Below are positions 3 to 61,018 of a stretch of DNA of 64,000 nt, piece after piece. Origin of the DNA: Ignavibacteria bacterium (lineage in GTDB: Bacteria; Bacteroidota; Ignavibacteria; Kapaibacteriales; UBA2268); assembly GCA_031261605.1 (NCBI GenBank), contig JAISJI010000068.1, forward strand, positions 2,771 to 66,770, written 5' to 3'. Position 1 is the stretch's first letter, and every line of letters starts with the position of its first letter. The position numbers and the translations under genes were made by a program. The notes beneath the pieces are model-generated. The model was not told where the DNA came from. It saw nothing but the letters and a program-made list of their open reading frames with translations, and made no database searches.

Positions 3-3000
3 ATCAGATGGGTATCCTACGGTATGACTGACCTCGCAAAAGCAAGCAAATTGAATTACGAAATTGACTATACTATGGACGGCGGACAAACTTGGACGCC
101 TGCAAAAAATCATAACGGACAGAACCTAGTCGGCACTACCATACCATCTCCTGATATAGGATACGCTGTATGGGAACCATACCAGAACAATAGCGCTGCT
201 GCGAACTTACGCTCTCTCACACCTTATGCAAAGACCGTTCAACTGCGGTTACAGGGCTTTGACGGCAGTGGCAATGTAGCATTCACTTCCACCTCCGATA
301 CATTTGCCGTTGCTCCTTACTTCGCTATACGTAGCATTGAAGGTAGCCAGTTGCGAGTAGATGCACGAATGGGAATGAATATCGTTAGCGACTACGCTTA
401 TATTGAAGCATGGCTCAAGCCGTATAGATTCCCACTTGCAGGAGAGGGCTTCTTCCCTATTGCAGAAAAATCGCAAGGCGGTGTATTACATTACGCATTT
501 AGATTAATGATGGACGGCTCGCTAACCCTTATCGTTACTGATATTAACGGAGTTGTATATACTGCTCGCACTAGTTCTTCGCTCGTGCTTGTAGCGCCGA
601 ACTCAGTTAATAACGATAGTTTATGGACACACGTCGCTGTCCTCTTTATTAGAAATAATGACAACAATATATCCGAAGCACGCTTCTATGTGGATGGTAA
701 TTACCAATATGGTGCTAACCTCGCACAGCAGTTTAACGCATCTATCGCATTGAATACAGACAATCCGTATCCACTATACATTGGCTCTAATCCCGCTGTT
801 ACAGCCAATAGCTTCGTTGGCGAGATGAAGGAAGTTCGCTTCTGGAATGGATTGCCAAACAACGCTTCGCCCTATGGAGCTGAGCCAACTGAGATGACTA
901 AGTTCGTCCAAAAATCACAAGCCGAAGATACTAAAACATTGACCGAAGCAAATAAGACAAATCTACATTCCGCTTTCAGTATGGACGGCGGAACGTTCTT
1001 CGCCAATGGTGGCAATAGAGTTGCTGCACTATGGGCTACAAAGGGCATTACGCTTAATAACTACGGCGTTGCAGTTAAATTTGTCCCATTCCAGCCATTC
1101 ATAAAATTAGTTGAACCGCAATTTAAGCAGTCCATAGCCAATACAGATAAGGCAGTAAAAGTGCGATGGGTTGGTCAATATTACGATGGATTAAACTTTG
1201 TCGCAGGTGCGAATAAAGTTCCGCCATCCTTACGCTACTCCATACTTGGCGGTGGTGGTAATGAAGTGCAGCCATATCAATACGTCGGCGGAAACTACTT
1301 CAGTGGCAACAAAACTAATTCTATAAAACTACTTACAACAGATGAATACCAGTCCAATCTCTCGGCTACAAAGAAATATTTTGCACTCGCATTAGACGCA
1401 TCTATGGCAAATCCAGATGTTAATAAAGATGGAGCGTATGGCGACCAAGGTCCGCTATCACCAACTTTGACCAATGGTAGATTGGAACTATCCGGCACTT
1501 ACTCTATCAATGGTGAGACATTCCCATTGGTGACGGAAGGTCCGCTATTTACAATTAATCCGCCGAACAATTTCACCATTCGCATAATGCTCGAAGGATA
1601 CCATCAAGGAAGCGTTGCCGGCAAAGCGGTAAATCAACTTGGTCCAAATTACGACCAAGGCGGTCTCGTTCTACGCCTATTTACGGATAACTCCGGCGAA
1701 ATCAGTAGCAAAGTTGGCGTCGATGCTTTTTCTGCAAATGGCTTCACCGATAGAGACCCTGTGAATTTGAACAAGGGCAATTACAGATTTGCAAACGTGG
1801 ATTTCCTATATACGAGCATCCCAAATGGTTCGTATTGGGTGTTCGTTGACCACATAAATCACTTGCCTATAATGAGCCGCTACCCTGCACCATTCCAATT
1901 CACCGGCGATGTAGGAACAACCTGGGCTATTGAGTCCGGCTGGGATTTTCTTAGTTGGAATGGCGTTGATGACAATGTAATGACATCGCCTTCTACTACT
2001 GATATATGGAAAAATAATTACTACACAGCGAAGGGAACGGCTGTAAATACTGCGAAGACATATCCAGAGAGATACGCTACGACTGGATTAATTTATAATG
2101 GCGGAACGACTGACCGCAACGGCTTGGCTGCTATGGTCGGTGGTGATGTCAATCAAGATGGAATGATTAACGCTGCCGATAGAGTTAAAGTTCGCCAAGA
2201 AGAAGGTCTGCAGTCCTATCAATCCGATATTACAGGTGATAAGTATGTCAATGCAGTGGATAGAACGATTACCGATAGAAATGCCGGTAAGGTCTCATCC
2301 TTGCTGAACACCGTGATACCTGCTTCTGCACCGCTTTCGCTCATTGACCCATTCAATGTAATCGTCGATGATAATGCAGAGTTATCGCTATACTTAAATA
2401 AACTAGCAAAAGTTTCTGGCTACAAAGCAAATGATAACCCGAAAGATATTGATATAGAACAACGACTGCATAGCAAGCAGAATGATGCTTTGCAAGCGGG
2501 CTTGATGTATTATGTGAGTGCGAAAACGAAATACAACGACAGCGGCTTTGTAGATGTTAGCGTGTATATTCGCAATGCTGGAGTGGCTTTTGCTCCCGCT
2601 AATTGCACGTTTCCGATTTCATTTGATACGAATGCAGTTACATTTTCTAAGTTCTATGGTGGTGATAGCGTGATATTCAATTCCGATTTTGATTACTCTA
2701 AATTGGATACTAATAACATTCCCGAGAATGGATATTTGAAATTGTCATCCGCTCCCAAAGTTGGTGCAGCAAACGCATACCGCAATTATAAGACGATAGA
2801 AATAGATTACGATGCTTACTCTAACCTCGGCGGAATCAATGTTCCAAGTTACGATACATATCTCGGAACACTCCGCTTCAATGTAAAGAAGGGCGCAGGC
2901 ATCGTTGCATTCCATTGGCACGAGAGCAGAGCAGTCATCACTACAAAAGGCGAAGATGGAACATCTGATGGTATATGGGATACAATTCCTGCTGTCCTGC

Positions 3001-4145
3001 TATACAACGCTACGATTACGCAACCAAACGGCGGCGAGGACTACCAAATACTTACGCAACAGCAAGTGAAATGGACTACTACCGGCACTGCCGATATACA
3101 TATATATCTATCTATCAATAACGGAATCACTTGGATGAAACTGACTGATACGGCTATTAGTTCGCAGCAACTGCAATACACTTGGACGACTCCGAATGTA
3201 AATTCAGAGCAATGCCTTATCCGCATTGTTGATGCCGAGACGAATACCGAAGTGGATAGAAGCGACGGCACATTCACTATTAGTCCGCCATGGGGACATA
3301 TCATTCAGCCATACGCAAGTTCGGAACCATACAAAGGCGGAACGGTTACACAGATAGAATGGACGGCTGGTGGAACATCTTGTGTTCGCTTTGAATACTC
3401 TATCGATGGCGGCTATACTTGGACAAAAATATCCGGCAACTTCGGTGCATCTGCTACCAGCACTATAAAGGCAAATTGGACGCTACCAAAGGTAACAACA
3501 AAGGAAGCATACGTCAGAATGATTGATTGCAATACGGACAATATATTGGATGTATCAGGCAAATTTATGATTGGTTATGGCACGATTACTTTCACGCAAC
3601 CCGCACAGAATCAAACTCTGCAAGGATGTAAGACAGCGACAATTAGATGGACTACAATAGGTGTTACGGAATTTGATTTGCAGTTATCTACCGATGGCAT
3701 TAATTGGATTACTATTGAATATGGCGTGGATGCTTCATTGAAGTTATACTCTTGGCAGATATTAGATGCTGAATCTAACACTTGCTACTTCCGCGCTATA
3801 TACAACGGCGATGAAGTGTTTGAGTTCGGACGTAGCAAAATGTTTAAGATTCGCAGATGCACAGGTATATACGATGAGCCAGAGAATGGTGCTATCGGTA
3901 ATATTTTCCCAAATCCAACAAATGGTATGGCATACATTACATTTGATTTACCTAAACCGGAGCGGTTGAATATACAGGTGATAGATTTAACCGGAAATGT
4001 AGTAAAGGAGATTGCGAACTACCTATTTGGTATCGGCAAGCAGACGATGGAATTTGACATCTCCGCCGTTGCAAATGGCAAGTATTACGTAATCATTACC
4101 TCGGATGACTTTGCAGTGTTAAGAGAACTCAACGTGGTGAAGTAG
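3..4145 (+). CDS. Very large secreted adhesin/glycan-binding-like protein. It has a LamG/concanavalin-like domain, dockerin-like Ca-binding repeats, three or more ~85-aa repeats each with an Asp-box (SxDGGxTW), and a T9SS C-terminal sorting domain. The 5' end is probably truncated by the window edge.
   Basis: 1373-aa ORF, and the frame stays open upstream to position 3. No signal peptide follows the first Met. Motifs include YTMDGGQTWTP, YSIDGGYTWTKI and LSTDGINWITI (Asp-boxes), DVNQDGMINAADRVKV (dockerin-like), and a C-terminal FPNPTNGMAYITF...GKYYVIITSDD...LNVVK that looks like a Por/T9SS sorting domain. Confidence 0.7.
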   Translation: MRWVSYGMTDLAKASKLNYEIDYTMDGGQTWTPAKNHNGQNLVGTTIPSPDIGYAVWEPYQNNSAAANLRSLTPYAKTVQLRLQGFDGSGNVAFTSTSDTFAVAPYFAIRSIEGSQLRVDARMGMNIVSDYAYIEAWLKPYRFPLAGEGFFPIAEKSQGGVLHYAFRLMMDGSLTLIVTDINGVVYTARTSSSLVLVAPNSVNNDSLWTHVAVLFIRNNDNNISEARFYVDGNYQYGANLAQQFNASIALNTDNPYPLYIGSNPAVTANSFVGEMKEVRFWNGLPNNASPYGAEPTEMTKFVQKSQAEDTKTLTEANKTNLHSAFSMDGGTFFANGGNRVAALWATKGITLNNYGVAVKFVPFQPFIKLVEPQFKQSIANTDKAVKVRWVGQYYDGLNFVAGANKVPPSLRYSILGGGGNEVQPYQYVGGNYFSGNKTNSIKLLTTDEYQSNLSATKKYFALALDASMANPDVNKDGAYGDQGPLSPTLTNGRLELSGTYSINGETFPLVTEGPLFTINPPNNFTIRIMLEGYHQGSVAGKAVNQLGPNYDQGGLVLRLFTDNSGEISSKVGVDAFSANGFTDRDPVNLNKGNYRFANVDFLYTSIPNGSYWVFVDHINHLPIMSRYPAPFQFTGDVGTTWAIESGWDFLSWNGVDDNVMTSPSTTDIWKNNYYTAKGTAVNTAKTYPERYATTGLIYNGGTTDRNGLAAMVGGDVNQDGMINAADRVKVRQEEGLQSYQSDITGDKYVNAVDRTITDRNAGKVSSLLNTVIPASAPLSLIDPFNVIVDDNAELSLYLNKLAKVSGYKANDNPKDIDIEQRLHSKQNDALQAGLMYYVSAKTKYNDSGFVDVSVYIRNAGVAFAPANCTFPISFDTNAVTFSKFYGGDSVIFNSDFDYSKLDTNNIPENGYLKLSSAPKVGAANAYRNYKTIEIDYDAYSNLGGINVPSYDTYLGTLRFNVKKGAGIVAFHWHESRAVITTKGEDGTSDGIWDTIPAVLLYNATITQPNGGEDYQILTQQQVKWTTTGTADIHIYLSINNGITWMKLTDTAISSQQLQYTWTTPNVNSEQCLIRIVDAETNTEVDRSDGTFTISPPWGHIIQPYASSEPYKGGTVTQIEWTAGGTSCVRFEYSIDGGYTWTKISGNFGASATSTIKANWTLPKVTTKEAYVRMIDCNTDNILDVSGKFMIGYGTITFTQPAQNQTLQGCKTATIRWTTIGVTEFDLQLSTDGINWITIEYGVDASLKLYSWQILDAESNTCYFRAIYNGDEVFEFGRSKMFKIRRCTGIYDEPENGAIGNIFPNPTNGMAYITFDLPKPERLNIQVIDLTGNVVKEIANYLFGIGKQTMEFDISAVANGKYYVIITSDDFAVLRELNVVK

Positions 4146-4146
4146 A

Positions 4147-5478
4147 TTATCCATAAATGAAGTTGCCGATATACATATCGTTCTCGGCATTAGCATTGCT
4201 ATCCTTTGCGTAAAACGTTCGTATCGATTGCTCTATCGTTTCGCCGAATAGCAGTTCATCTTGCTCGTCGTATAGATGCTTTTTAATTAGCGAAGTGTTT
4301 TTATAGAGCCAATAGTTGAGTATGCGGATTTCGTTTATATCAAATTCCACTTCCTCGTCATCGGCGTAAAATGTATCGTGAATGCAGTCGAAGATGCTAT
4401 TGAGATTGGCTTTTGTGCCTATGGTTGTGGTTGAGACATATCTGCCCTTGTGAATGAATATTACATCTATCAATTTCTCTTTTGGGGAATTCGGATAGAG
4501 AACTACCATAGATAGATTTTTTACGAGCAACTGCTGAGAGTAAGCATTGACTTGTATATCATCAGCATTAAATAGGTCTAAATACTTAATTGAGTTATAC
4601 TCCGGCTGGAGCAGCTTAATTTTACGATATTCCAAGATATATGCCTCAAGTTCTGATGTGGTCTCCAACCATTCCAAGCGAACGAATTTCTTCAATACCG
4701 AACGAATTTTTTTTGATACCTCATCGGTCTCCTCTATGAAACTGCTGATGTGTTCGGCTATATCATTGGAACGGGAGATATGCAATACCTTGCCACTTTT
4801 ACCGATAAATGTGAGAATGCCGTTGGAATGAGGAGCTTGCTTCTGGTATAATCTAAGTTTATCAAATATCTTTGTATCCAACTCCTTATACCGCCTAATG
4901 TCGCGGTTTTGGAAATCAAGCAGGTCTTCCAATGTAACAATATCAAACCTATCTTGAAGCATTAACAGCATTTCAATGAAGAAGTTAGCAGTTGCAAAAG
5001 CATCATCATAAGCGCGATGTCTATTGACAATCGGGATGTTAAAATAATCGGCGAGAGAGCCAACATTCTTCTTTATATTCTTCGGAATAAGGCGATTACC
5101 AAGTTTAAGAGTGCATAAAGTAGGAACATCAACAGCAGACAAGCCAGCGCTATTTATCGCCTCAGATACGAAACGCCAATCAAATGGAACATTGTGTGCA
5201 ACAAAGCAGGAGTTGTCTTGGAGTAAAATATTTCTTACGACAGCAAAAACTTCGCTCGCTTCTGGTGCGTTCATCACCATAAGGTCGTATATGCCGGTCA
5301 TTTTTTGTATATACGGCGGTATTGGTTGATGGGGATTTACAAGCGAACTGAAGGTATCAATAATTTCGAAATTGTTAACTGTGATACAAGCAATATCTGT
5401 TATCTTATTATACGAAGCGTGCGAACCGGTTGTCTCAACATCTACAACGATGAAGTTAGTATCTGAAATAAGTGTCAT
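4147..5478 (-). CDS. DnaQ-like (DEDDh) 3'-5' exonuclease fused to a GIY-YIG (UvrC/Cho-like) endonuclease domain, plus ~120 aa of unknown C-terminal region.
   Basis: Exo I motif VVDVETTG, Exo II FVAHNVPFDWRF, Exo III HRAYDDAFATANFF. A GIY-YIG-like block follows (GILTFIGKSGKVLHISRSNDIAEH ... EAYILEYRKIKLLQPEYN, compare UvrC EALLLEnnLIKkhqPrYN). The ORF is open to 5553. I chose the Met at 5478 (MTLISDTNFIVVD) as start; the Met at 5520 is possible. Confidence 0.75.
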   Translation of the reverse strand: MTLISDTNFIVVDVETTGSHASYNKITDIACITVNNFEIIDTFSSLVNPHQPIPPYIQKMTGIYDLMVMNAPEASEVFAVVRNILLQDNSCFVAHNVPFDWRFVSEAINSAGLSAVDVPTLCTLKLGNRLIPKNIKKNVGSLADYFNIPIVNRHRAYDDAFATANFFIEMLLMLQDRFDIVTLEDLLDFQNRDIRRYKELDTKIFDKLRLYQKQAPHSNGILTFIGKSGKVLHISRSNDIAEHISSFIEETDEVSKKIRSVLKKFVRLEWLETTSELEAYILEYRKIKLLQPEYNSIKYLDLFNADDIQVNAYSQQLLVKNLSMVVLYPNSPKEKLIDVIFIHKGRYVSTTTIGTKANLNSIFDCIHDTFYADDEEVEFDINEIRILNYWLYKNTSLIKKHLYDEQDELLFGETIEQSIRTFYAKDSNANAENDMYIGNFIYG

Positions 5479-22754: not shown

Positions 22755-22997
22755 TTAGCCCAATTTCTTCTCTAAGTATTCAATGACATTGCCGACAGTT
22801 TGAACTTTCTCTTGGTCTGCTTCGTCAATAGAGATATTGAACTCTTTTTCTATTTCAAGCATTACTTCCACAGTATCGAGCGAATCTGCGCCGAGGTCTT
22901 TTGTGAAAGAAGCTTCAGGAGTAACTTGCGATTCTTCTACTCCGAGTTTGTTTACAACGATTTTGATAACGTGTTGTGTGATTTCTTTGGTATCCAT
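22755..22997 (-). CDS. acpP: Acyl carrier protein.
   Basis: 80 aa. DLGADSLDTVEVMLEIEKEF contains the phosphopantetheine-attachment Ser. Confidence 0.95.
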   Translation of the reverse strand: MDTKEITQHVIKIVVNKLGVEESQVTPEASFTKDLGADSLDTVEVMLEIEKEFNISIDEADQEKVQTVGNVIEYLEKKLG

Positions 22998-23030
22998 TTA
23001 ATTTACCTTTTGATTTATGTATGTGAAAAA

Positions 23031-23100
23031 TATATATTTATTTATGTTTATGTTTTTGGTTTTGTTATAATTGACGTTACTTCTTACCATTAAATGTAAT
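23031..23100. repeat. Copy 1 of a ~60-bp direct repeat, located just upstream of the acpP start.
   Basis: aaaaatatatatttatttatgtttatgtttttggttttgtta...cttcttaccattaaatg. Near-identical to 24340-24400 apart from small indels. Confidence 0.6.
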
Positions 23101-23473
23101 CTAAACCCAGCAACTCCAATTCGGTAATAACCGATATGTATATATGTTTGTTATTAAGAAAATCTGCAATAAATTGATTTCCATTTAGTAAATGTATCAG
23201 CGGGTTTGTATCACACAATATTCTAATTCCATTCATTCCTTATATTCTTTTGATACTGAAGTGGTTCTTCGTTCCAATTTATTTTTCCCGCAAATTTTTG
23301 CGAATTGAACTGCTTTTGCGATTCCATATTGGATAGAAGTTTATTTAGTTCTATTTTATTTGTTTCTTTGTTTATTGCAATAAGCATACTATTTCTCCAT
23401 ATAAAAAAAATTACACGATAACTATACTGTGTTTACATCAATCCTTCTTTGATGAAAATCTCCAATATTTTCC

Positions 23474-24322
23474 TCAACATAACGCTGCGATATATCCACT
23501 ATATTCATGCTTTGAATTCTCTTTATTAATTGAATCATTTATCATCTCAAAATACTCCGGCAATATCTCTATCCCTATAGTGTTGCGGTGCATTCTATTA
23601 GCAACTATATTGGTCGTCCCTGAACCCGCAAATGGGTCAAGCACCAAGTCACCTTCTTTCGTAAATAACTTAATAAACCACTCCGGTAAATCCTCTGGAA
23701 ATGCTGCACTATGATTTTTATTATTGCATTCCGTGGCTAAGTGTAATACATTAGTGGGATATGCTTTTTTTCTATCTATCCAATTGGAAATATTTTTGCC
23801 AAATCCACTACCATTCTTGGAATTATCTCGTATCTTATCTGTATCACTCAAATTCCTAAGACGGGACTTCGCCCAATCGCCCATTTCTACCATCACTTCA
23901 TCCTGATACATATTAAAATGCTTGTCTTTATTGAATTGCAACAATCGCTCCCAAGCATCCCTAAATCTATTGGGCCACTTACCCGGAAAGCAATTCTTCT
24001 TATGCCAAATAAATTCCTCTGTCCAAAACCAGCCCTGCTTACGCATCTCAAGAATTAGTTCCATTACATAAGTGCTACGTTCACCTTCAACAACCTTTTC
24101 CTTAATATTCAAAATAAAAGTCCCTGTCGGCTTTAATATCCGCAACAATTCCTTCGAAATCGGAAGAAACCATTCCACATATTTATTCGGCGAAATTCCG
24201 CCATAAGTAGATTTCCGCTGGTCCGCATACGGCGGCGACGTAATAACTAAATCCACATAATTATCCGGCATCTTACTCATCGTTTGCAGACAATCTTCAT
24301 TATATATTTCGCAAAACTCCAT
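23474..24322 (-). CDS. Beta-class DNA amino-methyltransferase (N6-adenine or N4-cytosine). Appears solitary or orphan.
   Basis: Motif IV DLVITSPPY lies N-terminal to motif I DLVLDPFAGSGTT, which is the beta-class order. 282 aa. Confidence 0.85.
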   Translation of the reverse strand: MEFCEIYNEDCLQTMSKMPDNYVDLVITSPPYADQRKSTYGGISPNKYVEWFLPISKELLRILKPTGTFILNIKEKVVEGERSTYVMELILEMRKQGWFWTEEFIWHKKNCFPGKWPNRFRDAWERLLQFNKDKHFNMYQDEVMVEMGDWAKSRLRNLSDTDKIRDNSKNGSGFGKNISNWIDRKKAYPTNVLHLATECNNKNHSAAFPEDLPEWFIKLFTKEGDLVLDPFAGSGTTNIVANRMHRNTIGIEILPEYFEMINDSINKENSKHEYSGYIAALC

Positions 24323-24339: not shown

Positions 24340-24400
24340 TTCAAAAAAAATATATATTTATGTTTGTTTTTGTTTTTGTTACTTCTTCCATTCAATATGC
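24340..24400. repeat. Copy 2 of the ~60-bp direct repeat. It overlaps the 3' end of the 112-aa ORF and sits ~20 nt upstream of the methyltransferase start.
   Basis: aaaaaatatatatttatgtttgtttttgtttttgtta cttcttccattcaatatg. Aligns to 23031-23100. Confidence 0.6.
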
Positions 24401-24717
24401 CCATTCATATTGTATTTTTCAAATACCTTTAGAACTTCAGCACTAAAGGTTGTTAATTCTTTATCGCCTAATTTTTTAGATAACTCATACAGATGTATGA
24501 ACATTTTCTTTCCGGATTCTGTTTGCTTGTAAACCTTTTTCTCAAATAAAGTTTTCACCAAAAAATAATCTATAAAATTATCCTGACGAAGCAATATCTG
24601 CATATCAAAAAGCATCTCCCTTTCCAGTAAATCCCTATCCGATGGACTTTCGCTGTTAATTTCTTTAGCGATATAGTCCAATTCTTCTTGCTGTTCTTTT
24701 TTACTTAATTTAATCAT
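24379..24717 (-). CDS. Hypothetical 112-aa protein, translationally coupled to the upstream 367-aa ORF.
   Basis: ATGA overlap with the 367-aa ORF at 24714-24717. Charged, probably helical. No motif recognised. Confidence 0.5.
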   Translation of the reverse strand: MIKLSKKEQQEELDYIAKEINSESPSDRDLLEREMLFDMQILLRQDNFIDYFLVKTLFEKKVYKQTESGKKMFIHLYELSKKLGDKELTTFSAEVLKVFEKYNMNGHIEWKK

Positions 24718-25817
24718 ATCTGCAATGGTATTTGTATTCTTTCTCTTTTGTGTTGAATGTCTGATTCTAAGTGTTGCAATATCCTTGAGCCAAGCGAAGT
24801 AAATATCACCCTATCGTAAAATCCACTTGTTTTTACTTTTTCGGTAAGCTCTAATTCTTCACAATGATTACAAGAAAATCTAAGAACATCAGCAACAGTT
24901 CCTTCGGTGTAATCCATTTTGAAAAAACTATTTACAAAATCAAATTCTGATTTTTTTTGAAATGCCCGCCCACGAGGAAGCCATTCCCCATCTGTTAATG
25001 CAATGAATTTCAGAAAATAATAAATATTGATTTTGCATTTCTTTTCGTAAAAATTACCATTTAATAATGACTCCAGCAATATCCTCTTCTGCTCTACGCT
25101 TAGATTTATCCGCTTCAATTTATCTGTAATTTCCACTGCATTAATATTGTCTCTGAAGCGAACGCCAAAATCCGTAAGTTGTATCGTATTACGAACTTTA
25201 TTTAGCAAATCAAAATCCTCTGCAACTCTAACAGCGACATTAAATCTTGTTTTTGTTACTCCATCGCTAAAATTAAAAGCATCGCCAAAATCCTTAATCG
25301 CTAATCTGTCAGCATTATTCTCATAGAATGGGACAAACAACCTATTCAAACCACCGAGATGCGTAAAATTCAATGATATTGGTGGAGATAGTGGAACTCC
25401 GTTATTAATCAATGCCTTTTGTATTTCAGTATCATATAGCAACCTAATTTTATCTAAATCATAATCAAACCAAAGCAAATCATTTGCATCACAGAAAGTT
25501 ACAATTTCATTAGTATAATAAACCGGTGTTTGCTTGGCGAATAAAATCCCCACTTTGTGTTGAAAACCTTTCGCCAAAATAATATTTGTATATTGATTAC
25601 TTTGCTGCAAACAATAGGACAATTTTGCTTTACTATCTATTATAGTTTCAAGTTCTGTAATCAGAAAGCCATCATTCTTTATTTTATGAGCAAAATCAAT
25701 TCTACCATAAGCGGTTGTAAATTGCTGGCATACTTTATTCGCTAAAGGTAGAGAAATGCACTCTTGTAAATAATTCCTTTCTCTTAATAGAGTCCATTCC
25801 ACAAGGTATTCATTCAT
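24714..25817 (-). CDS. Hypothetical 367-aa protein. Candidate restriction endonuclease or defence nuclease with weak PD-(D/E)xK-like spacing. Function unknown.
   Basis: A GGAGG RBS precedes the ATG. N-terminal GRIDFAH...ITELETIIDSK could be a D...E..DxK nuclease motif. One CxxC (CNHCEE). Sits in a methyltransferase neighbourhood. Confidence 0.5.
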   Translation of the reverse strand: MNEYLVEWTLLRERNYLQECISLPLANKVCQQFTTAYGRIDFAHKIKNDGFLITELETIIDSKAKLSYCLQQSNQYTNIILAKGFQHKVGILFAKQTPVYYTNEIVTFCDANDLLWFDYDLDKIRLLYDTEIQKALINNGVPLSPPISLNFTHLGGLNRLFVPFYENNADRLAIKDFGDAFNFSDGVTKTRFNVAVRVAEDFDLLNKVRNTIQLTDFGVRFRDNINAVEITDKLKRINLSVEQKRILLESLLNGNFYEKKCKINIYYFLKFIALTDGEWLPRGRAFQKKSEFDFVNSFFKMDYTEGTVADVLRFSCNHCEELELTEKVKTSGFYDRVIFTSLGSRILQHLESDIQHKRERIQIPLQI

Positions 25818-25829: not shown

Positions 25830-25943
25830 TTAAATCCCCACATTATACGGTGGCGACGTTACAATCAAATCAATGAACGGCGCATCAAATAAATCGCTAT
25901 TCAACGAACTATCATTTAGCAACTCTATACCTTTAAACTCCAT
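25830..25943 (-). pseudogene. N-terminal remnant of a second beta-class methyltransferase gene: 38 codons, truncated right after the SPPY motif.
   Basis: MEFKGIELLNDSSLNSDLFDAPFIDLIVTSPPYNVGI* is homologous to the N-terminus of the intact methyltransferase (MEFCEIYNEDCLQTMSKMPDNYVDLVITSPPY). It starts 8 nt after the fabG stop and is followed 1 nt after its stop by the RBS of the 367-aa ORF. Confidence 0.65.
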
Positions 25944-25951: not shown

Positions 25952-26698
25952 CTACATCACCATCCCGCCATCTATATGAACCACCTGTCCCGTCAAATAA
26001 CTCGCATCTTCCGAACAAAAGAAACTAACCACATTCGCTATATCTTCCGCCTCTGCTGCCCGCTTAAGTGGTATCCCTTTCAAAAATTCCTGCTTCACTT
26101 CATCGCTCAATACATCCGTCATCGGTGTCCGAACAAAACCCGGCGCTACATAATTGCAAAGTATATTCCGACTACCAAGTTCCTTCGCTACCGACTTCGT
26201 AAAGCCGATTAATCCTGCTTTTGATGCCGAATAATTGGCTTGACCTGCGTTCCCCATAACTCCTACAACCGAACCCATATTCACAATGCGACCATAACGT
26301 TGAGACATCATATAGCGACTCACAACCTTCGTGCAAAGGAACACTCCCTTGAGATTAGTCGACAGCACAGCATCCCAATCGCTCTCATTCATCCGCATAA
26401 GCAAGTTATCACGGGTAATTCCAGCATTGTTGATTAAGAAATCAATACGCTGACTCTCGGCTATTATCGCATCCATAACGCTTTGCACCTGCTCGAAATT
26501 GGTAACATCGAGTTGCTTAACTATCGCATTCTTAGCCAATTCGGCATCTGTGATAAACACCTCTTCTGCATTTGGAATAGCATAATCAAGAGCATATACT
26601 TTCGCTCCTTCTTTGAGAAGACGTTCCACAATCGCTTTGCCGATACCACGACATCCGCCGGTTACTACGGCTATTTTATTTTCAAATCTATTACACAT
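25952..26698 (-). CDS. fabG: 3-oxoacyl-ACP reductase.
   Basis: SDR. IAVVTGGCRGIGKAI, NAG, YSASKAGLIGFTKSVAKE, and a C-terminal GQVVHIDGGM typical of FabG. Confidence 0.9.
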   Translation of the reverse strand: MCNRFENKIAVVTGGCRGIGKAIVERLLKEGAKVYALDYAIPNAEEVFITDAELAKNAIVKQLDVTNFEQVQSVMDAIIAESQRIDFLINNAGITRDNLLMRMNESDWDAVLSTNLKGVFLCTKVVSRYMMSQRYGRIVNMGSVVGVMGNAGQANYSASKAGLIGFTKSVAKELGSRNILCNYVAPGFVRTPMTDVLSDEVKQEFLKGIPLKRAAEAEDIANVVSFFCSEDASYLTGQVVHIDGGMVM

Positions 26699-27487: not shown

Positions 27488-29140
27488 CTACTCCCCAAAA
27501 CTATACACCGCCATATTCTCCAAATACTTGTCATCCACAACACGCACCGCTACATTATGAACACCACCTTCCGCAAAGTTATGAACCCGAACACCATTCT
27601 TGTCATACAAAACACTCGGATTAAATTTACCAACCTCCTGTGGAAACTTGTGTGCCGGTATCGGATAATTAAAATCCCAACTATAATTGATTATCACACT
27701 ATCACTCACCGCTCGAAATTCATACTTCCCATCCAACGTCTTGCTACAATCTATGCGAACTACTGGACGTTTCGCTACATCCACTATCTCGCTCACCAAC
27801 ACACGCTCTATCAATATACCATCCTCATTCTTTAACCGAGCCATCTCCTGAACCGCCTCCTTTGCAAAATCAAATGCTATGAAATAACCAACCGGTAAGC
27901 CATTCTCCTGCTTCTCCTTAAACTTCCGACCAGCGTGACATACCGAAAAAAACTTCTGTATCTCCACTCGCCCTATCTTATTCTTCCAACTCTTCACCTG
28001 TATCGGCACATCATCCTTCATCCCATCACTACCGTGGTCACCACGCTGCTTCTCATTCGGAGTGCCACCAAACTTACCTACTATCCACGTCTCAAACTCA
28101 AATGGGTCCATCGCTCGTAAGTCCTCCTCGGCGAAGTAGTGCTTCTCAATCTCGTAATTTGTAAATATTCCATTCGCTTGCAAACGCTTGTCTGTCACAT
28201 CTAACGCTGCGATGGACTGGTCTATTCCGATAAAATTCCGCTGCAAATTATTCGCCATCAACATTGTCGTCCCACCACCCATAAATGGGTCAAGCACCAC
28301 ATCTCCTTCGTTAGAGGATGCTTTGATAATCCGCTCAAGAAGTGCCAGCGGCTTCTGTGTAGGGTAACCAATCTTTTCTATAGATGTTCCTTGAACATTT
28401 TGTATATCAATCCAGTCGTTCCCGATTAATTGCCCCTTTGTCTCACTTAAATATCTTTTTATACGCAATCGTTGATGTTGAGATTTTGGAAAATATATTT
28501 TATTGTCCGCATCCCATTTTTGCATTGTTTCAAACGGACAACGCCAGCCATTTGCATTTGGCAAATACCCTTTATACTCATAGTTATATCCGCCCGGTCT
28601 TGTGTTTGTTAAATCTCCCAACGAATATTTTCCTTTACCATCCATATCATCATACTTGTAAAAATTACATGAATATTTTTCAGTAAGTTCAGAGTATATC
28701 GGATTAAAAGAAAAATTATTTGACTTAGAATAATACCAAATTGTATCTGTTAATACTGCCAATTTTTTCTTTGCATCATTGTGTGCATTGGTTCTTTTCC
28801 AAATTATATGCCCTCTAAAATTTTCATACCCAAATTCCTTATCCAAAATCATCACCCTAATATATGCATCGGCATGCCAGTCGCAATGCAAATATATAGA
28901 GCCGGTGGGCTTGAGCAAGCGATGCATTTCTTTCACTCGGTCGTAAAGCCAGTTGATATATTGGTCTATGCCACCACTCCATCTGTCCTCAAAGGAGCGT
29001 ATTTCGCCGGCATCTCCCCAAATAATTTCGTAATTACGATTAGAGAAGAATGGCGGGTCAAGGTAAATGAGAGCAATGCTTTCTGCGGGCATTTTCTTCA
29101 TTACTTCGAGGCAGTCGCCGAGTATTATTTTATTTTGCAT
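27488..29140 (-). CDS. Beta-class DNA amino-methyltransferase fused to an Mrr-cat (PD-(D/E)xK) restriction-endonuclease-like domain, with a C-terminal PKD-like beta-sandwich tail.
   Basis: Motif IV IALIYLDPPF, motif I DVVLDPFMGGGTT. Then FEFETWIVGKFGG...RGDHGSDGMKDDVPIQVKSWKNKIGRVEIQKF, which fits the Mrr-cat signature F..l....G....gDgGiDg....Q.K. The tail carries YSWDF ... GVHNVAVRVVDD. Confidence 0.75.
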   Translation of the reverse strand: MQNKIILGDCLEVMKKMPAESIALIYLDPPFFSNRNYEIIWGDAGEIRSFEDRWSGGIDQYINWLYDRVKEMHRLLKPTGSIYLHCDWHADAYIRVMILDKEFGYENFRGHIIWKRTNAHNDAKKKLAVLTDTIWYYSKSNNFSFNPIYSELTEKYSCNFYKYDDMDGKGKYSLGDLTNTRPGGYNYEYKGYLPNANGWRCPFETMQKWDADNKIYFPKSQHQRLRIKRYLSETKGQLIGNDWIDIQNVQGTSIEKIGYPTQKPLALLERIIKASSNEGDVVLDPFMGGGTTMLMANNLQRNFIGIDQSIAALDVTDKRLQANGIFTNYEIEKHYFAEEDLRAMDPFEFETWIVGKFGGTPNEKQRGDHGSDGMKDDVPIQVKSWKNKIGRVEIQKFFSVCHAGRKFKEKQENGLPVGYFIAFDFAKEAVQEMARLKNEDGILIERVLVSEIVDVAKRPVVRIDCSKTLDGKYEFRAVSDSVIINYSWDFNYPIPAHKFPQEVGKFNPSVLYDKNGVRVHNFAEGGVHNVAVRVVDDKYLENMAVYSFGE

Positions 29141-35116: not shown

Positions 35117-36433
35117 ATGCCAGAAGAGAACTTCACCAACACACTATACACCAACGACAACCTCTTCGTCCTAAATGGCTTAAATAGCGATTTGGTTGAT
35201 TTGATATACTTAGACCCACCATTCAATACCAAACGACTATTTTCTGCACCAATAGGTAGTAAAGCAGCCGGCTCGAGTTTCAAGGATATGTGGAATTGGC
35301 AAGATGTGAACGAAGCGTATCTTGATACTTTGGCAGAAAATTATCCGGCATTGACTGATTTCATTGCATCTACGAGTGTGGTGCATAGCAAAGCGATGGC
35401 TGCGTATCTAACATATATGGTGCAACGAATCGTCGAAATGCATCGCGTGCTAAAGGATACGGGCAGTTTATATTTGCATTGCGACCCGACTGCAAGCCAT
35501 TATTTGAAGGTGCTGTTGGATGAGGTTTTTGGTAAAAATAATTTTAGAAATGAAATTGTGTGGTGCTATAAAGAACGCGAAATATCCAAAAAATATTTTA
35601 ATAGAAAACACGATATTATTTTCTTTTACGTTAAATCAGAAAAATATTTATTTAACCCTACGAGATTGTTAGAACCATATAGCAAGGGGACGATTAAGAA
35701 ATTCAATTATACCGATGATGATGGACGCAGTTTTCAAATACGCGGCAAAGGCGGTGAATACACTGGAAAGCAAGGTCTCGATATAAAGTTAGAGCAAACA
35801 AGTCCAGATTTGGTGTATAGAGATTATTTGGATAAAAGTGGAGGAATATTGCCGCGTGATTGGTGGGAGATTCCATTCCTTAACAGAGCAGCCAAAGAAC
35901 GCACCGGCTACCCAACACAAAAACCGCTTGCTCTGTTGCAACGCATCATTAAGGCATCATCAAATGAAGGCGATATAGTTATGGACCCATTTTGTGGTTG
36001 TGCAACGGCTTGTGTTGCGGCTCAGCAACTCGGGAGGAAGTGGATTGGTATTGATGTAGAGGAGAATGCGGTTGATATTTTGATTGAGCGATTGAGTGAC
36101 GATGCTGGGATGTTCAAGGATTTTGTAGCGACAAAATTAATTCCCAAACGCACGGATTTAACTCTCGAACCACCATCGCAATCGGTAAAAGAACGCTTGT
36201 ACAAAGAACAAAATGGATGTTGCAACGGCTGTGGAAATGAATATTTAATGAAAGATATGGAAATAGACCACATCATTCCGAAAGCAAAAGGTGGTGGCGA
36301 TTACTACGAAAATTACCAGTTGTTATGTGGTAATTGCAATAGAATTAAGGGAAAAAATACAATGGAATTTTTGCGAATAAAGATACAAACGCGCAAGAAT
36401 TTACTGAAGGAAAAGATTATTTTCGGGGAATAA
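35117..36433 (+). CDS. Beta-class DNA amino-methyltransferase fused to a C-terminal HNH endonuclease domain. The AdoMet motif I is degenerate.
   Basis: Motif IV LIYLDPPF. Motif I region DIVMDPFCGCATA instead of FxGxGTT. C-terminal CCNGCGNEYLMKDMEIDHIIPKAKGGGDYYENYQLLCGNCNRIKG is an HNH motif (C..C...H...N...C..C). The core shares ~60% identity with the 27488..29140 methyltransferase (GYPTQKPLALLxRIIKASSNEGD). Confidence 0.8.
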   Translation: MPEENFTNTLYTNDNLFVLNGLNSDLVDLIYLDPPFNTKRLFSAPIGSKAAGSSFKDMWNWQDVNEAYLDTLAENYPALTDFIASTSVVHSKAMAAYLTYMVQRIVEMHRVLKDTGSLYLHCDPTASHYLKVLLDEVFGKNNFRNEIVWCYKEREISKKYFNRKHDIIFFYVKSEKYLFNPTRLLEPYSKGTIKKFNYTDDDGRSFQIRGKGGEYTGKQGLDIKLEQTSPDLVYRDYLDKSGGILPRDWWEIPFLNRAAKERTGYPTQKPLALLQRIIKASSNEGDIVMDPFCGCATACVAAQQLGRKWIGIDVEENAVDILIERLSDDAGMFKDFVATKLIPKRTDLTLEPPSQSVKERLYKEQNGCCNGCGNEYLMKDMEIDHIIPKAKGGGDYYENYQLLCGNCNRIKGKNTMEFLRIKIQTRKNLLKEKIIFGE

Positions 36434-57114: not shown

Positions 57115-57811
57115 TAATATTTCTTGTAAATAATTTTCTAATATTTAAAATAAACCTTGATATTTCACGACTTATTTTAAAAACAATATTAATACTGCTT
57201 TTTCTATTTTTAATTGTTGAATTTAATGAGTTTTCATTTTCTTTAATTAAATATGGAAAATAAAAAATTGTAGGAATTTTATGTATCCAAAAACTATCCA
57301 AATAATCATCCACAGGATATAGCCAAGCCCTTGATTTTTCAATGAATTGCCTTGCTGCAAACGGAGTTAAATAATACCCTTGCGCACCAGAAACTCCATT
57401 TCGTGTAATATAAAAGTTGCCGTTTATTTTTTTACTTTTTTTGTCGAATAAACACATTAATTTAGTATAATTATATGGGCTTTTTTTTATGACATCTAAT
57501 CCATTTTCAAAATCTGGAAGTAAGGCAACATCGTCCTCTAAAATCACAATATCTTCTTTTAATTCAAGGCACTTCTGCCATAAAGAATAATGCGAAGCAA
57601 AGCAAGCAATTTCGCCATCAGTCAACGACTTTCCCCGAATTAATTTGCTAAAAAAAGGATTAATTTTATTAAAAAAAATACCAATTTTCTGCGAATTAAT
57701 TGCATTAAAAAAAATAAATTCATTTTTATCTGAATTAATGCTATCCATCTGAAAAATCATAGAGTTACGTCTATTTATTTCCGTTTCTAAATTTATAATA
57801 AATATTTTCAT
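57095..57811 (-). CDS. Glycosyltransferase family 25 (LPS/LOS biosynthesis, Lic2B/LgtB-like).
   Basis: N-terminal MKIFIINLETEINRRNSM matches GT25. 20-nt overlap with the GT4 gene. Confidence 0.65.
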   Translation of the reverse strand: MKIFIINLETEINRRNSMIFQMDSINSDKNEFIFFNAINSQKIGIFFNKINPFFSKLIRGKSLTDGEIACFASHYSLWQKCLELKEDIVILEDDVALLPDFENGLDVIKKSPYNYTKLMCLFDKKSKKINGNFYITRNGVSGAQGYYLTPFAARQFIEKSRAWLYPVDDYLDSFWIHKIPTIFYFPYLIKENENSLNSTIKNRKSSINIVFKISREISRFILNIRKLFTRNISEKNII

Positions 57812-57812
57812 T

Positions 57813-58493: not shown

Positions 58494-58502
58494 AATAAAT
58501 AA

Positions 58503-59501: not shown

Positions 59502-59513
59502 ATTTTATTTTTA

Positions 59514-60971: not shown

Positions 60972-61018
60972 TCCCCTTAAAATAAAACTACTTAAAGTTT
61001 TTTGGCACGGTTTTTGCT

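What the first reader, a model, noticed from the sequence alone, without database searches (positions are those of the whole stretch)
24379..25817. Two coupled unknown ORFs (367 aa and 112 aa) next to the methyltransferase: candidate new restriction/defence partner
The 367-aa protein has no motif I can assign. It does have a possible PD-(D/E)xK-like arrangement near its N-terminus (RIDF ... ELETIIDSK) and one CxxC. It is followed by a 112-aa acidic/helical protein joined through an ATGA overlap. The pair sits exactly where the cognate endonuclease of the adjacent methyltransferase would be expected. Neither protein resembles a classical family I can name from sequence alone. It could be a new Type II REase plus accessory protein, or a non-RM defence effector.
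Basis: inference. Interest (0 to 1): 0.6.

Follow-up and report, generated by a model that had tools for sequence, protein, structure and literature searches.

The report
Mobile nuclease inside a wrecked restriction operon
The 367-aa gene encodes an uncharacterised DNA-cutting enzyme that moves between bacteria and archaea as a single-gene cassette and nearly always sits among the dead remains of a restriction-modification system, so it is not the partner of the methyltransferase beside it, and the "112-aa protein" is a dead fragment of another nuclease.

Summary
Both ORFs exist as described, on the minus strand with an ATGA overlap. The 367-aa protein ("X") folds confidently (pLDDT 90) into a NucS-type PD-(D/E)xK nuclease head plus two winged helices. 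Its catalytic residues are invariant in 63 homologues from many bacterial and archaeal phyla.

The proposed pairing is wrong. Across about 50 loci the recurrent neighbour of X is a methyltransferase gene upstream, and it is truncated or frameshifted in about 37, absent in about 10 and full-length in 3. In this window it is a 37-codon stub (25830-25942).

The 112-aa ORF is the degenerate tail of a 194-aa HNH restriction enzyme and has lost its catalytic residues.

The intact 282-aa methyltransferase lies on a separate insertion flanked by a 40-60-bp duplication.

X stays intact and under purifying selection (dN/dS 0.05-0.24). It recombines with breakpoints at its own start and stop, and coexists with intact downstream REase genes while the methyltransferase is dead.

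My best reading is a methyltransferase-independent, mobile restriction-type nuclease that replaces R-M operons, by the logic of drg/DpnI. A homing-type selfish nuclease is the main rival. The biochemistry is untested.

The parts
24714..25817 (-). X: 367-aa nuclease, the core of the finding. An intact single-gene cassette.
   Evidence: ORF. 123 homologues, all annotated hypothetical. AF2 pLDDT 90.4. DNA homology to relatives begins within 16 nt upstream of the ATG and ends at or near the stop codon. dN/dS is 0.05-0.24 among homologues.
25458..25817 (-). X residues 1-120: NucS-type PD-(D/E)xK nuclease domain. Key residues are E3, D41, E55-L-E57, K65 and Q72xxxY76.
   Evidence: Foldseek against PDB gives NucS/EndoMS 2vld and 5gke (probability 1.00, 120 columns, rmsd 3.0-3.8), then SfsA and MspJI. 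The residues are invariant in 63 sequences, and the one K57 sequence lacks K65. PF01939 NucS_C is reached in distant members, e.g. P0234 at 28.7 bits against a cutoff of 24.
24798..25370 (-). X residues about 150-340: two winged-helix (wH) units, the presumed DNA-reading module.
   Evidence: Helix/strand pattern of the AF2 model. Foldseek hits to MarR-family wH proteins, to the BpuJI recognition domain 5hnh (246 columns) and to N.BspD6I 6qnz (263 columns). HTH_45 and other wH Pfam hits in distant members.
24717..24797 (-). X residues 341-367: long C-terminal helix and a conserved tail, KRExIQIPLQI (KKSR[LM]NLSFKY in the distant clade).
   Evidence: Alignment. The resemblance to clamp-binding hexapeptides is my inference only.
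25830..25942 (-). 37-codon stub of a beta-class SPPY DNA methyltransferase (MEFKGIELL...DLIVTSPPYNVGI*). It starts 9 nt after the fabG stop and ends 12 nt before the X start.
   Evidence: Sequence. tblastn aligns it to residues 26-63 of the intact 283-aa methyltransferase of L007 (53% identity, E 2e-5). The same kind of stub precedes X in most loci.
24379..24717 (-). The '112-aa protein': a degenerate 3' remnant of a 194-aa HNH Type II restriction endonuclease gene. It is read from an ATG created by the X stop codon context.
   Evidence: All relatives are about 194-aa PF01844 HNH proteins. BLASTP aligns residues 19-112 to P0122 residues 111-194 (E 7e-27), with the catalytic H/N/H positions replaced by S/D/D. 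The upstream cysteines fall outside the aligned part. The last 55 aa are 75% identical. No HNH Pfam hit. Intact M+HNH pairs exist without X in L072 and L073.
24346..24387 (.). Copy 1 of a direct duplication. It covers the last 10 nt of the HNH-remnant ORF plus the A/T-rich spacer.
   Evidence: Families D3 and D4. Sequence.
23026..23085 (.). Copy 2 of the duplication, just upstream of acpP. The two copies bracket the 282-aa methyltransferase module.
   Evidence: D3 is 33 nt at 91%, and D4 extends to GTTACTTCTT. One search shows 'AATGGTAAGAAGTAAC' here against 'AATGGAAGAAGTAAC' at the ORF end.
23474..24322 (-). 282-aa N6_N4 (SPPY) DNA methyltransferase. A later, separate arrival, not the conserved neighbour of X.
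   Evidence: PF01555 at 3e-47. No counterpart beside X elsewhere. Bracketed by the duplication.
23090..23387 (-). A 54-aa ORF (23223..23387) plus a 48-aa ORF that reads like a truncated PIN/VapC N-terminus (23090..23236). I take them as toxin-antitoxin debris carried with the 282-aa methyltransferase.
   Evidence: ORFs. The PIN assignment is from the sequence pattern only (MNGIRILCDTNPLIHLL...) and was not tested.

Best explanation
SHOWN. X is a two-part endonuclease: a NucS-type PD-(D/E)xK catalytic head and two winged-helix DNA-reading units. It belongs to a small, unannotated family scattered over many bacterial and archaeal phyla.

The gene behaves as a discrete cassette. Sequence identity between loci breaks sharply at its start and stop codons. 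The cassette sits inside Type II restriction-modification (R-M) operons of at least three unrelated kinds: an SPPY methyltransferase (MTase) upstream, and an HNH, MjaI-family or third PD-ExK restriction endonuclease (REase) downstream.

In those operons the MTase is almost always reduced to a 5' stub or frameshifted, while X keeps every catalytic residue. In this window the order is fabG | MTase stub (37 codons) | X | dead HNH remnant (the 112-aa ORF) | a later insertion carrying the 282-aa MTase and toxin-antitoxin debris | acpP.

INFERRED, the mechanism I commit to. X cuts DNA without needing protection from a neighbouring MTase, so it must spare ordinary host DNA. The most economical way is that its winged helices read the modified, methylated form of a site. 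Cells carrying the corresponding MTase then cannot keep X, and vice versa. This is the logic of DpnI and of the neisserial dam-replacing gene drg, which sits in a truncated dam gene.

The cassette spreads by recombination into resident M-R operons, with the crossover within about 100 nt of its left end. That truncates the resident MTase gene and leaves its 5' part as a promoter and translational-coupling leader. In some clades X works together with the downstream REase-like gene.
For: Fold and active site.

Family size and spread: 123 hits, all hypothetical. 52 genome loci, from Elusimicrobiota to Thermoplasmata. Only 107 representatives of 50%-identity clusters among 1.84 billion.

MTase stubs abutting the X start: lengths run from 17 to 238 codons against a full length of 263. 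The near clade, including this window, shows the same. Independent 4-nt and 11-nt frameshifting deletions occur in the second MTase type. My manual tally gives about 37 truncated, about 10 absent and 3 full-length among about 50 assessable loci with intact X. The one locus of the 377-aa clade where a complete, unbroken MTase gene is visible (L058) has a frameshifted X.

Intact REase, dead MTase: four loci were found through the long-form MjaI REase, independently of X. All four have X or an X remnant and a truncated MTase. R3 is intact beside MTase stubs in Capnocytophaga.

Selection: dN/dS of X is 0.05-0.24, including pairs that share one truncation junction.

Cassette behaviour: identity profiles break at the ends of X. 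L074 and L075 have 0 mismatches over 2.2 kb of X plus REase, but 54 mismatches in the 620-nt MTase stub, and unrelated flanks upstream. MTase and X distances correlate poorly (r = 0.41).

X as an add-on: intact two-gene M+HNH systems exist without X.

Precedent: drg is inserted in the dam locus, truncates dam, and encodes a GmeATC-dependent DpnI-like enzyme (PMC4269198). PD-(D/E)XK-wH fusions act as methyl-dependent enzymes (PMC11037411).
Against: No biochemical data exist. Nothing shows that X reads a methylated base.

DpnI and its relatives did not appear among the structural matches. The winged-helix hits are generic (MarR) or of the Type IIS recognition-domain kind.

Three loci (L007, L044, L029) have an apparently intact MTase next to an intact X with all catalytic residues. 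If X read that MTase's mark, this should be lethal.

The MTase stubs diverge mostly at third codon positions, as if under purifying selection. Simple incompatibility does not explain this without repeated invasion of functional genes.

A protecting MTase elsewhere in each genome cannot be excluded, because only loci were available, not genomes.

The loci were found through X or its partner, so some ascertainment bias remains.
Confidence: 0.35

Rival explanations
1. Homing-type selfish endonuclease. X recognises a long site present only in intact M-R operons, such as the 3' end of the MTase gene or the M|R junction, and breaks it. It is then copied in by repair from an X-bearing allele. Its own insertion or the associated deletion destroys the target, so it needs no methylation.
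For: Recipient-type sequence resumes within about 100 nt of the X start in every pair compared, like the short co-conversion tracts seen in homing. The ends of the cassette are precise. X-less intact target operons exist. All truncation classes lack the MTase 3' end. Stubs look freshly derived from functional genes. About 10% of copies are degenerate, as in a homing cycle. Homing elements in methylase genes are known (PMC11855218, listed; title and abstract only, not read).
Against: There are many different junction positions rather than one precise insertion site. Leaving an intact REase beside a dead MTase should kill a classical host. X is absent from the phage, plasmid and viral collections, where such elements usually thrive. 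No intron or intein context. L044 and L007 keep an intact MTase beside X.
Confidence: 0.25
2. X is a classical methylation-sensitive Type II REase, protected in this genome by the adjacent 282-aa MTase and in other genomes by an MTase elsewhere.
For: X has a nuclease head plus a Type IIS-like recognition module. X clades track MTase types, as cognate pairs would. An intact SPPY MTase lies 392 nt downstream of X (57 nt past the 112-aa ORF) in the window.
Against: The adjacent MTase is dead or absent in about 47 of 50 loci, and no MTase lies within 4-5 kb in several (L001, L066, L071) or within the 1-2.6 kb of contig available around X in L009/L070. The 282-aa MTase is only 25% identical to the ancestral neighbour type and arrived by a separate insertion. 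No terminator-like site lies between fabG and X, so X would be read through from a housekeeping operon.
Confidence: 0.1
3. X is the large subunit (recognition plus one catalytic site) of a heteromeric restriction enzyme. The small subunit would be the downstream nuclease (long-form MjaI-type, R3 or HNH), as with N.BspD6I and its small subunit. Where the partner is dead, as in this window, X survives as a tolerated site-specific nickase.
For: Structural match to N.BspD6I (263 columns) and BpuJI. The long-form MjaI REase, with an extra N-terminal domain, was found only next to X or an X remnant in 4 of 4 independent samples. Start and stop codons are coupled.
Against: X plus an intact partner coexist with a dead MTase (L033, L074-L076, L003-5), which a double-strand-cutting heteromer should not allow. 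Closely related X proteins are followed by unrelated small ORFs. M+HNH pairs function as units without X.
Confidence: 0.1
4. X is a replication- or repair-linked nuclease, a NucS-like head tethered to the sliding clamp through its conserved C-terminal tail. It would be associated with methyltransferases for strand or lesion discrimination.
For: NucS-like fold. The extreme C-terminal hexapeptide QIPLQI / LNLSFK fits the clamp-binding pattern Q-L-x-L-x-[LF] (pattern from my own knowledge). NucS uses a C-terminal clamp-binding motif (PMC6159521).
Against: The distribution is patchy, rare and horizontally mobile, unlike a repair gene. X lacks the NucS N-terminal domain. It persists where the MTase is dead.
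Confidence: 0.05
5. X is a non-functional relic of a decayed R-M island.
For: Everything around it in the window is debris: MTase stub, HNH remnant, truncated PIN-like ORF.
Against: The full-length ORF has all catalytic residues intact in 63 of 63. dN/dS is 0.05-0.24. There is recent transfer between unrelated flanks.
Confidence: 0.05

Closest known systems
NucS/EndoMS mismatch endonuclease (PDB 2vld, 5gke; Pfam PF01939 NucS_C)
   Same: The catalytic domain fold and motif set (E, D, ExK/E, QxxxY) match. It is the best structural match, at probability 1.0. Distant family members reach the Pfam threshold. Both have a conserved extreme C-terminal tail.
   Different: X has no NucS N-terminal DNA-binding or dimerisation domain. 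In X the nuclease is N-terminal and is followed by two winged helices. X has E at the canonical K position with a compensating K65. It is mobile and R-M-associated, not a core repair gene.
DpnI and the neisserial dam-replacing gene drg (NmeBII): methyl-directed PD-(D/E)XK-wH endonucleases
   Same: The domain order is an N-terminal PD-(D/E)xK followed by C-terminal winged helix. drg is inserted in, and truncates, the gene of the MTase whose mark it cuts (PMC4269198). PD-(D/E)XK-wH fusions are described as methyl-dependent enzymes that rarely have an MTase gene nearby (PMC11037411).
   Different: No sequence or structural hit to DpnI. X is larger, with two winged helices and a linker helix. The displaced MTases are SPPY (probably N4-cytosine) types rather than Dam. 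Methyl dependence is not shown. Three loci keep an intact MTase.
Type IIS recognition modules (FokI, BpuJI 5hnh, N.BspD6I 6qnz)
   Same: A tandem winged-helix DNA-recognition region is joined to a separate PD-(D/E)xK cleavage domain.
   Different: The domain order is reversed. TM-scores are low (0.29-0.34). There is no cognate MTase dependence.
Free-standing homing endonuclease genes, including insertion elements in phage methylase genes (PMC11855218)
   Same: A discrete single-gene cassette, short co-conversion-like tracts, disruption of a conserved host gene, and occasional degenerate copies.
   Different: Junction positions vary. There is no intron or intein. X is not found in phage collections. 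The nuclease family is not one of the usual homing families, although PD-(D/E)xK homing enzymes exist (my own knowledge).
HNH Type II restriction endonucleases of about 194 aa paired with PF01555 MTases (e.g. P0122, P0125; loci L072, L073). This comparison concerns the 112-aa ORF.
   Same: The C-terminal 55 aa are 75% identical, and the whole ORF aligns to residues 111-194.
   Different: The N-terminal 110 residues are missing. The catalytic H, N and H are replaced by S, D and D. The upstream cysteines fall in the missing part, and the one cysteine inside the aligned part is replaced by L. There is no Pfam HNH hit.

Membership tests
PD-(D/E)xK nuclease superfamily, NucS_C-like branch | Restriction-endonuclease-like alpha/beta core | tested here: met
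   AF2 pLDDT 90.4. Foldseek matches 2vld and 5gke at probability 1.00, rmsd 3.0-3.8 over 120 columns.
PD-(D/E)xK nuclease superfamily, NucS_C-like branch | Catalytic D ... (D/E)-x-K plus QxxxY | tested here: met
   D41, E55, Q72 and Y76 are invariant in 63/63. Position 57 is E in 62/63 together with K65 in 60/63. The single K57 sequence lacks K65. This is an ExE variant as in BamHI (my own knowledge).
PD-(D/E)xK nuclease superfamily, NucS_C-like branch | Pfam PF01939 score above the gathering cutoff | tested here: inconclusive
   No hit for the window protein. Distant members hit: P0234 at 28.7 bits (cutoff 24), P0213 at 23.6, and a precomputed hit on P0118/P0119.
NucS/EndoMS proper | N-terminal NucS dimerisation/DNA-binding domain and about 250-aa two-domain layout | tested here: not met
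   In X the nuclease is N-terminal and is followed by winged helices. NCBIfam NucS reaches at most 32 bits against a cutoff of 216.
NucS/EndoMS proper | C-terminal clamp-binding motif | tested here: inconclusive
   The conserved tail QIPLQI / LNLSFKY fits the pattern. Binding is untested.
Classical Type II R-M restriction endonuclease | An intact cognate MTase gene conserved next to the nuclease gene across homologues | tested here: not met
   About 3 full-length, about 37 truncated or frameshifted and about 10 absent among about 50 assessable loci.
Classical Type II R-M restriction endonuclease | Cleavage blocked by cognate methylation; lethal without it | not testable with these tools
   Indirect only: abundant natural populations carry X, and often a second REase gene, with a dead MTase.
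Modification-dependent (Type IIM/IV) PD-(D/E)XK-wH enzymes (DpnI/Drg-like) | N-terminal PD-(D/E)xK plus C-terminal winged helix | tested here: met
Modification-dependent (Type IIM/IV) PD-(D/E)XK-wH enzymes (DpnI/Drg-like) | No functional MTase of the matching kind alongside (avoidance of conflict) | tested here: inconclusive
   Largely met, at about 47 of 50 loci. L007, L044 and L029 are exceptions.
Modification-dependent (Type IIM/IV) PD-(D/E)XK-wH enzymes (DpnI/Drg-like) | Homology to DpnI or known methyl-reading winged helices | tested here: not met
   No PDB sequence hit at E <= 1. DpnI is not among the top 50 Foldseek matches.
Modification-dependent (Type IIM/IV) PD-(D/E)XK-wH enzymes (DpnI/Drg-like) | Cleavage requires modified DNA | not testable with these tools
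   Needs enzyme assays.
Homing endonuclease genes | One precise insertion site in a conserved target, with target-less and target-bearing alleles | tested here: inconclusive
   X-less intact M+HNH operons exist, and co-conversion-like tracts are short. But there are at least 9 different junction positions.
HNH endonuclease (Pfam PF01844), for the 112-aa ORF | HNH catalytic residues and Cys/His zinc ligands | tested here: not met
   No Pfam hit. In the aligned part the H/N/H positions are S/D/D and the one aligned cysteine is L; the upstream CxxC lies outside the alignment.
Known anti-phage defence systems (PADLOC-DB 2.0) | A significant match to any system component | tested here: not met
   The window X scores only 0.022 to PDC-M05A. 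Relatives give only weak nuclease-core hits to candidate families PDC-S02 and PDC-S26.

The most novel reading that the evidence does not exclude
X is a selfish endonuclease cassette that specifically invades and disarms restriction-modification operons across bacteria and archaea. It would break the resident operon, or be selected because it cannot coexist with the operon's methylation. It is then copied in with very short conversion tracts, beheading the methyltransferase gene and using its 5' stub as promoter and leader. In some clades it would co-opt the orphaned restriction enzyme through a dedicated N-terminal adaptor domain. That makes it a parasite of another selfish element, and a natural 'R-M killer'.
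Probability: 0.22. Interest if true: 0.85.

Novelty: new variant of a known kind. Interest (0 to 1): 0.62.

Why it matters
If the reading holds, three things follow.

(1) An unannotated family, "hypothetical protein" in every source, becomes a new type of methyltransferase-independent restriction or selfish nuclease. It has a NucS-like head on a Type IIS-like reader, which could be useful as a new specificity scaffold.

(2) It gives a widespread, cross-domain example of a nuclease gene replacing a methyltransferase gene. The only example of this found in the literature searched here is the neisserial drg; DpnI cassette exchange is cited from my own knowledge.

(3) It warns annotators that "MTase next to unknown ORF" does not mean a cognate R-M pair. 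The true partner may be a 37-codon stub on the other side, and the "accessory protein" a dead gene.

A cultured carrier exists for direct tests: Capnocytophaga sp. oral taxon 326 F0382, with EKY17789.1, EKY17788.1 and EKY17787.1.

Tried and rejected
- Pfam, NCBIfam and PADLOC on X and the 112-aa ORF gave nothing usable for X.
- A profile search of PDB sequences with the family alignment gave no hit at E <= 1.
- Foldseek against viral structures gave only generic PD-(D/E)xK matches.
- A single-sequence AF2 run of the C-terminal 228 residues failed (pLDDT 35.7). It should have been run with the alignment, so no domain-level fold search was possible.
- X was not found in IMG/VR, PLSDB plasmids or INPHARED phages.
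- The metagenome scan with the single protein returned only 5 loci.
- An HMM of the conserved small downstream proteins of the distant clade does not match the 112-aa ORF (E 0.32). So I rejected the idea of a conserved accessory protein.
- I first read those small 'YDRFTFD' ORFs as a dedicated partner, then as pure debris. They are N-terminal parts of a long-form MjaI-family REase. Their status (functional short form or remnant) stays open, with dN/dS 0.1-0.45.
- The promoter and terminator scan was uninformative: 15 promoter-like sites against 15.4 expected, and no terminator.
- A search for the distant-clade MTase in plasmids gave only hits below 40% identity.
- A Vsr-like repair role for the methylated base was considered and dropped. 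X persists and moves without the MTase.
Full report
1. WHAT IS IN THE WINDOW

On the minus strand, one search gives a 367-aa ORF (24714..25817, here called X) and a 112-aa ORF (24379..24717). The sequence shows that the stop of the first and the start of the second share ATGA. A 282-aa PF01555 DNA methyltransferase (MTase) follows at 23474..24322.

The block lies between fabG (25952..26698) and acpP (22755..22997). Its G+C is 0.33-0.34 against about 0.41 around it. No terminator-like site separates fabG from X.

Two further features were not in the finding.

- Directly after the fabG stop there is a 37-codon ORF, MEFKGIELL...DLIVTSPPYNVGI* (25830..25942). It ends 12 nt before the X start and is the N-terminus of a beta-class SPPY methyltransferase.
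- The 282-aa methyltransferase, a 54-aa ORF and a 48-aa ORF that reads like a truncated PIN N-terminus are bracketed by a direct duplication (24346-24387 and 23026-23085). The duplication includes the last 10 to 15 nt of the 112-aa ORF.

So the 282-aa methyltransferase arrived as a separate insertion into the 3' flank of the X block.

2. WHAT THE TWO PROTEINS ARE

X matches no Pfam, NCBIfam or PADLOC model and no PDB sequence. With a 28-sequence alignment, AlphaFold gives pLDDT 90.4.

- Residues 1-120 match the nuclease domain of NucS/EndoMS (2vld, 5gke; probability 1.00). The next matches are SfsA and MspJI.
- The C-terminal two thirds match MarR-type winged helices and, over about 250 columns, the recognition domains of BpuJI and N.BspD6I.
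- In 63 full-length homologues E3, W8, G38, D41, E55, L56, Q72 and Y76 never vary. Position 57 is E together with K65, except in one sequence that has K57 and no K65. This is a lysine swap typical of live PD-(D/E)xK sites.
- Distant members reach the Pfam NucS_C threshold and show winged-helix Pfam hits.

The 112-aa ORF has only about 194-aa HNH endonucleases as relatives. It aligns to residues 111-194 of such proteins (E 7e-27), and its last 55 residues are 75% identical. The catalytic H/N/H positions read S/D/D. The N-terminal 110 residues, which hold the upstream cysteines, are missing, and the one cysteine inside the aligned part reads L. No HNH model detects it.

It is a dead remnant. Its ATG exists because the conserved X C-terminus ...Q-I-stop is encoded ...CAG ATA TGA.

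3. THE FAMILY AND ITS NEIGHBOURS

X has 123 relatives, all annotated "hypothetical". They form only 107 clusters at 50% identity among 1.84 billion representatives, about 30 of them full length.

They occur in Ignavibacteria, Bacteroidia, Capnocytophaga, Elusimicrobiota, Chlorobiales, Cloacimonadota, Planctomycetes, Nitrospirae, Zixibacteria, Thaumarchaeota, Thermoplasmata, Methanobacteriota and others. X is absent from the viral, plasmid and phage collections.

I examined about 75 loci. The neighbours fall into three unrelated restriction-modification (R-M) contexts, which track the X clades.

- (A) Near clade, including the window. A 283-aa SPPY methyltransferase with a 194-aa HNH restriction endonuclease (REase). 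All three genes are intact only in L007, in the order M-HNH-X. The same M+HNH pair exists as a normal two-gene system without X in L072 and L073.
- (B) The 377-aa clade. A 382-aa HTH-methyltransferase upstream and a 324-aa PD-ExK protein (R3) downstream. R3 matches PADLOC REase_II at 3.6e-9.
- (C) The 362-366-aa clades. A 263-aa SPPY methyltransferase upstream and a long-form MjaI-family REase (PF09568, PADLOC REase_II 1e-29) starting at the X stop.

4. THE METHYLTRANSFERASE IS NEARLY ALWAYS DEAD, AND X IS NOT

In context C the methyltransferase ORF stops after 17, 25, 37, 46-50, 66, 100, 113-123, 150, 201-209 or 232-238 of 263 codons. Each time it stops within 0-50 nt of the X start (usually within 30). 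Only L044 is full length.

In context B there are stubs (L003-5, L061, L062) and independent 4-nt and 11-nt frameshifting deletions (L015, L011). L058 is the one locus of this clade where a complete, unbroken methyltransferase gene is visible, and it has a frameshifted X.

In context A the stubs are of 37-83 codons (window, L001, L008, L066) or are frameshifted pieces (L064).

My manual tally over about 50 distinct assessable loci with intact X gives 3 full-length adjacent methyltransferases (L007, L044, L029), about 37 truncated or frameshifted, and about 10 with none detectable (plus inspection).

Sampling from the other side gives the same picture. Four loci found through the long-form MjaI enzyme all carry X, or a 69-codon in-frame X remnant, together with a truncated methyltransferase. 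In three of them both X and the REase are intact.

Populations abundant enough to assemble thus carry X, often with a second REase-like gene, without the neighbouring methyltransferase. X cannot be a classical enzyme held in check by that methyltransferase.

5. X BEHAVES AS A CASSETTE UNDER SELECTION

dN/dS of X is 0.05-0.24. This includes pairs that share one truncation junction: L024/28/32/33, L031/45, L027/41, L001/66 and L040/43.

DNA homology between the window and its relatives begins within 16 nt upstream of the X start codon and ends at or near its stop codon.

Sliding identity profiles show the following.

- L041/L027: about 94% over X and the following ORF, but about 70% in the methyltransferase stub and nothing beyond.
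- L045/L031: homology only from -100 to the X stop.
- L045/L054: stub and junction about 80% identical, but X about 50%.
- L028/L032: X 95% against 70-75% in the host flanks.

L074 and L075 have zero mismatches over 2.2 kb of X plus REase. The 620-nt stub upstream carries 54 mismatches, and the flanks beyond it are unrelated.

Methyltransferase and X distances correlate weakly (r = 0.41). Crossovers always lie within about 100 nt of the X start.

6. WHAT REMAINS UNEXPLAINED

The stubs diverge as if under purifying selection.

- dN/dS is 0.02-0.19.
- L074/L075 differ at 37 codons, 27 of them synonymous, with differences at codon positions 1/2/3 of 6/5/30, despite an identical truncated tail.
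- Junctions fall just after conserved methyltransferase motifs: QIGFND, IPIRTE, GFDYMG, LDYEF, AMFPE and DPFLG.

Either the cassette repeatedly recombines into functional methyltransferase genes, with the last crossover in the nearest conserved patch, or the stubs have a function of their own. I could not decide between these.

The small ORFs after X in clade C are N-terminal parts of the long MjaI enzyme. In clades A and B closely related X proteins are followed by unrelated small ORFs. There is therefore no conserved "accessory protein", and the window's 112-aa ORF is not one.

7. INTERPRETATION

Shown:
- the fold and a live-looking active site;
- cassette-like mobility;
- residence inside three kinds of R-M operon;
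- near mutual exclusion with an intact neighbouring methyltransferase;
- the remnant nature of the 112-aa ORF;
- the separate origin of the 282-aa methyltransferase.

Inferred: how X spares the host. I favour a modification-directed or otherwise self-sparing restriction nuclease that replaces the methyltransferase whose mark it cannot coexist with. The precedent is drg, a DpnI-like GmeATC-dependent enzyme inserted in a truncated dam gene (PMC4269198). PD-(D/E)XK-wH fusions are a known architecture of methyl-dependent enzymes (PMC11037411).

Against this reading:
- no similarity to DpnI;
- three loci with an intact methyltransferase;
- no biochemistry.

The main rival is a homing-type nuclease that breaks intact M-R operons and is copied in. 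It explains the short conversion tracts and the fresh-looking stubs. It does not explain the variable junctions or the intact REases left beside dead methyltransferases.

The other readings are less likely, for the reasons given under the rivals:
- a classical REase protected in trans, including by the 282-aa methyltransferase;
- a heteromeric enzyme with the downstream nuclease;
- a clamp-tethered repair nuclease (the tail QIPLQI/LNLSFKY resembles clamp-binding peptides, and NucS uses such a motif: PMC6159521);
- a relic.

8. VERDICT

The object is an unannotated, rare, cross-domain family whose genomic behaviour was not described for any nuclease family in the literature I searched; the nearest precedent found is the neisserial drg. 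I rate it a new variant of a known kind (a solitary PD-(D/E)xK-winged-helix nuclease that replaces a methyltransferase), with interest 0.62. Confidence is about 0.35 in the specific mechanism, and much higher in the structural and comparative statements.

Noticed in passing
window 27488-29140 (-): A 550-aa protein that fuses an N6_N4 DNA methyltransferase (DPPF motif, PF01555 at 3e-47) to a C-terminal Mrr_cat restriction-endonuclease domain (PF04471, 23.2 bits against a cutoff of 21). It lies 1.7 kb upstream of X, between rpsP and murC-like genes. It may be a single-chain R-M or Type IIG-like enzyme.
   Followed up: partly
window 24346-24387 and 23026-23085: A direct duplication of about 40-60 bp brackets the 282-aa methyltransferase and the toxin-antitoxin debris. 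It includes the last 10-15 nt of the HNH-remnant ORF. This looks like 'insertion with long target duplication', a mode I recall being proposed for mobile R-M units in PMC2853133 (listed, not read).
   Followed up: partly
window 23090-23387 (-): A 54-aa ORF followed by a 48-aa ORF that reads like the N-terminus of a PIN/VapC toxin cut short (MNGIRILCDTNPLIHLL...). I take it as toxin-antitoxin debris. The assignment rests on the sequence pattern only.
   Followed up: no
window about 36164-36349 (+): tblastn with an HNH restriction enzyme picked up a second, apparently intact HNH motif elsewhere in the window (CNGCGN...EIDHIIPKAKGG...NYQLLCGNCNRIK).
   Followed up: no
window 56001-64000: G+C drops to 0.25-0.34 against about 0.40 elsewhere. 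This is probably another horizontally acquired island.
   Followed up: no
L077 3795-4004: X is reduced to a 69-codon in-frame ORF that keeps its first 38 and last 31 residues, between a 169-codon methyltransferase stub and an intact long-form MjaI REase. The internal deletion preserves both conserved termini.
   Followed up: partly
L074/L075 2282-2902 versus 2899-5116: Two contigs from one study have X, REase and downstream sequence 100% identical over 2.2 kb. Their truncated 206-codon methyltransferase genes differ at 37 codons, 27 of them synonymous, and the flanks upstream are unrelated (GmrSD against DUF3800). A truncated methyltransferase evolving as if under purifying selection is unexplained.
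   Followed up: partly
L011 1035-4106; L014 228-3397; L058 1506-6004: In the 377-aa clade, variable large genes sit between the methyltransferase and X. They include a 1023-aa protein whose N-terminus looks metallophosphoesterase-like, a 408-aa plus 648-aa pair, and a 1089-aa protein plus a 384-aa ORF that looks like a PD-(D/E)xK (YhcG-type) nuclease. None of these assignments was tested. The M|X gap seems to be a landing pad for other genes.
   Followed up: no
X residues 357-367 (window 24717-24749) and homologues: The extreme C-terminal tail comes in two conserved versions, KRExIQIPLQ[IL] and KKSR[LM]NLSFKY. Both fit the clamp-binding hexapeptide pattern (Q/R)-(L/I)-x-L-x-(L/I/F). NucS uses a C-terminal clamp-binding motif. 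Binding is not tested.
   Followed up: partly
L003-L005 (Capnocytophaga sp. oral taxon 326; EKY17787-9): A cultured human oral bacterium carries, after serS, a methyltransferase stub, X, a 62-aa ORF and the 324-aa REase-like R3. The X protein was seen on 115 contigs and the 62-aa protein on 207. This is a ready experimental system.
   Followed up: partly
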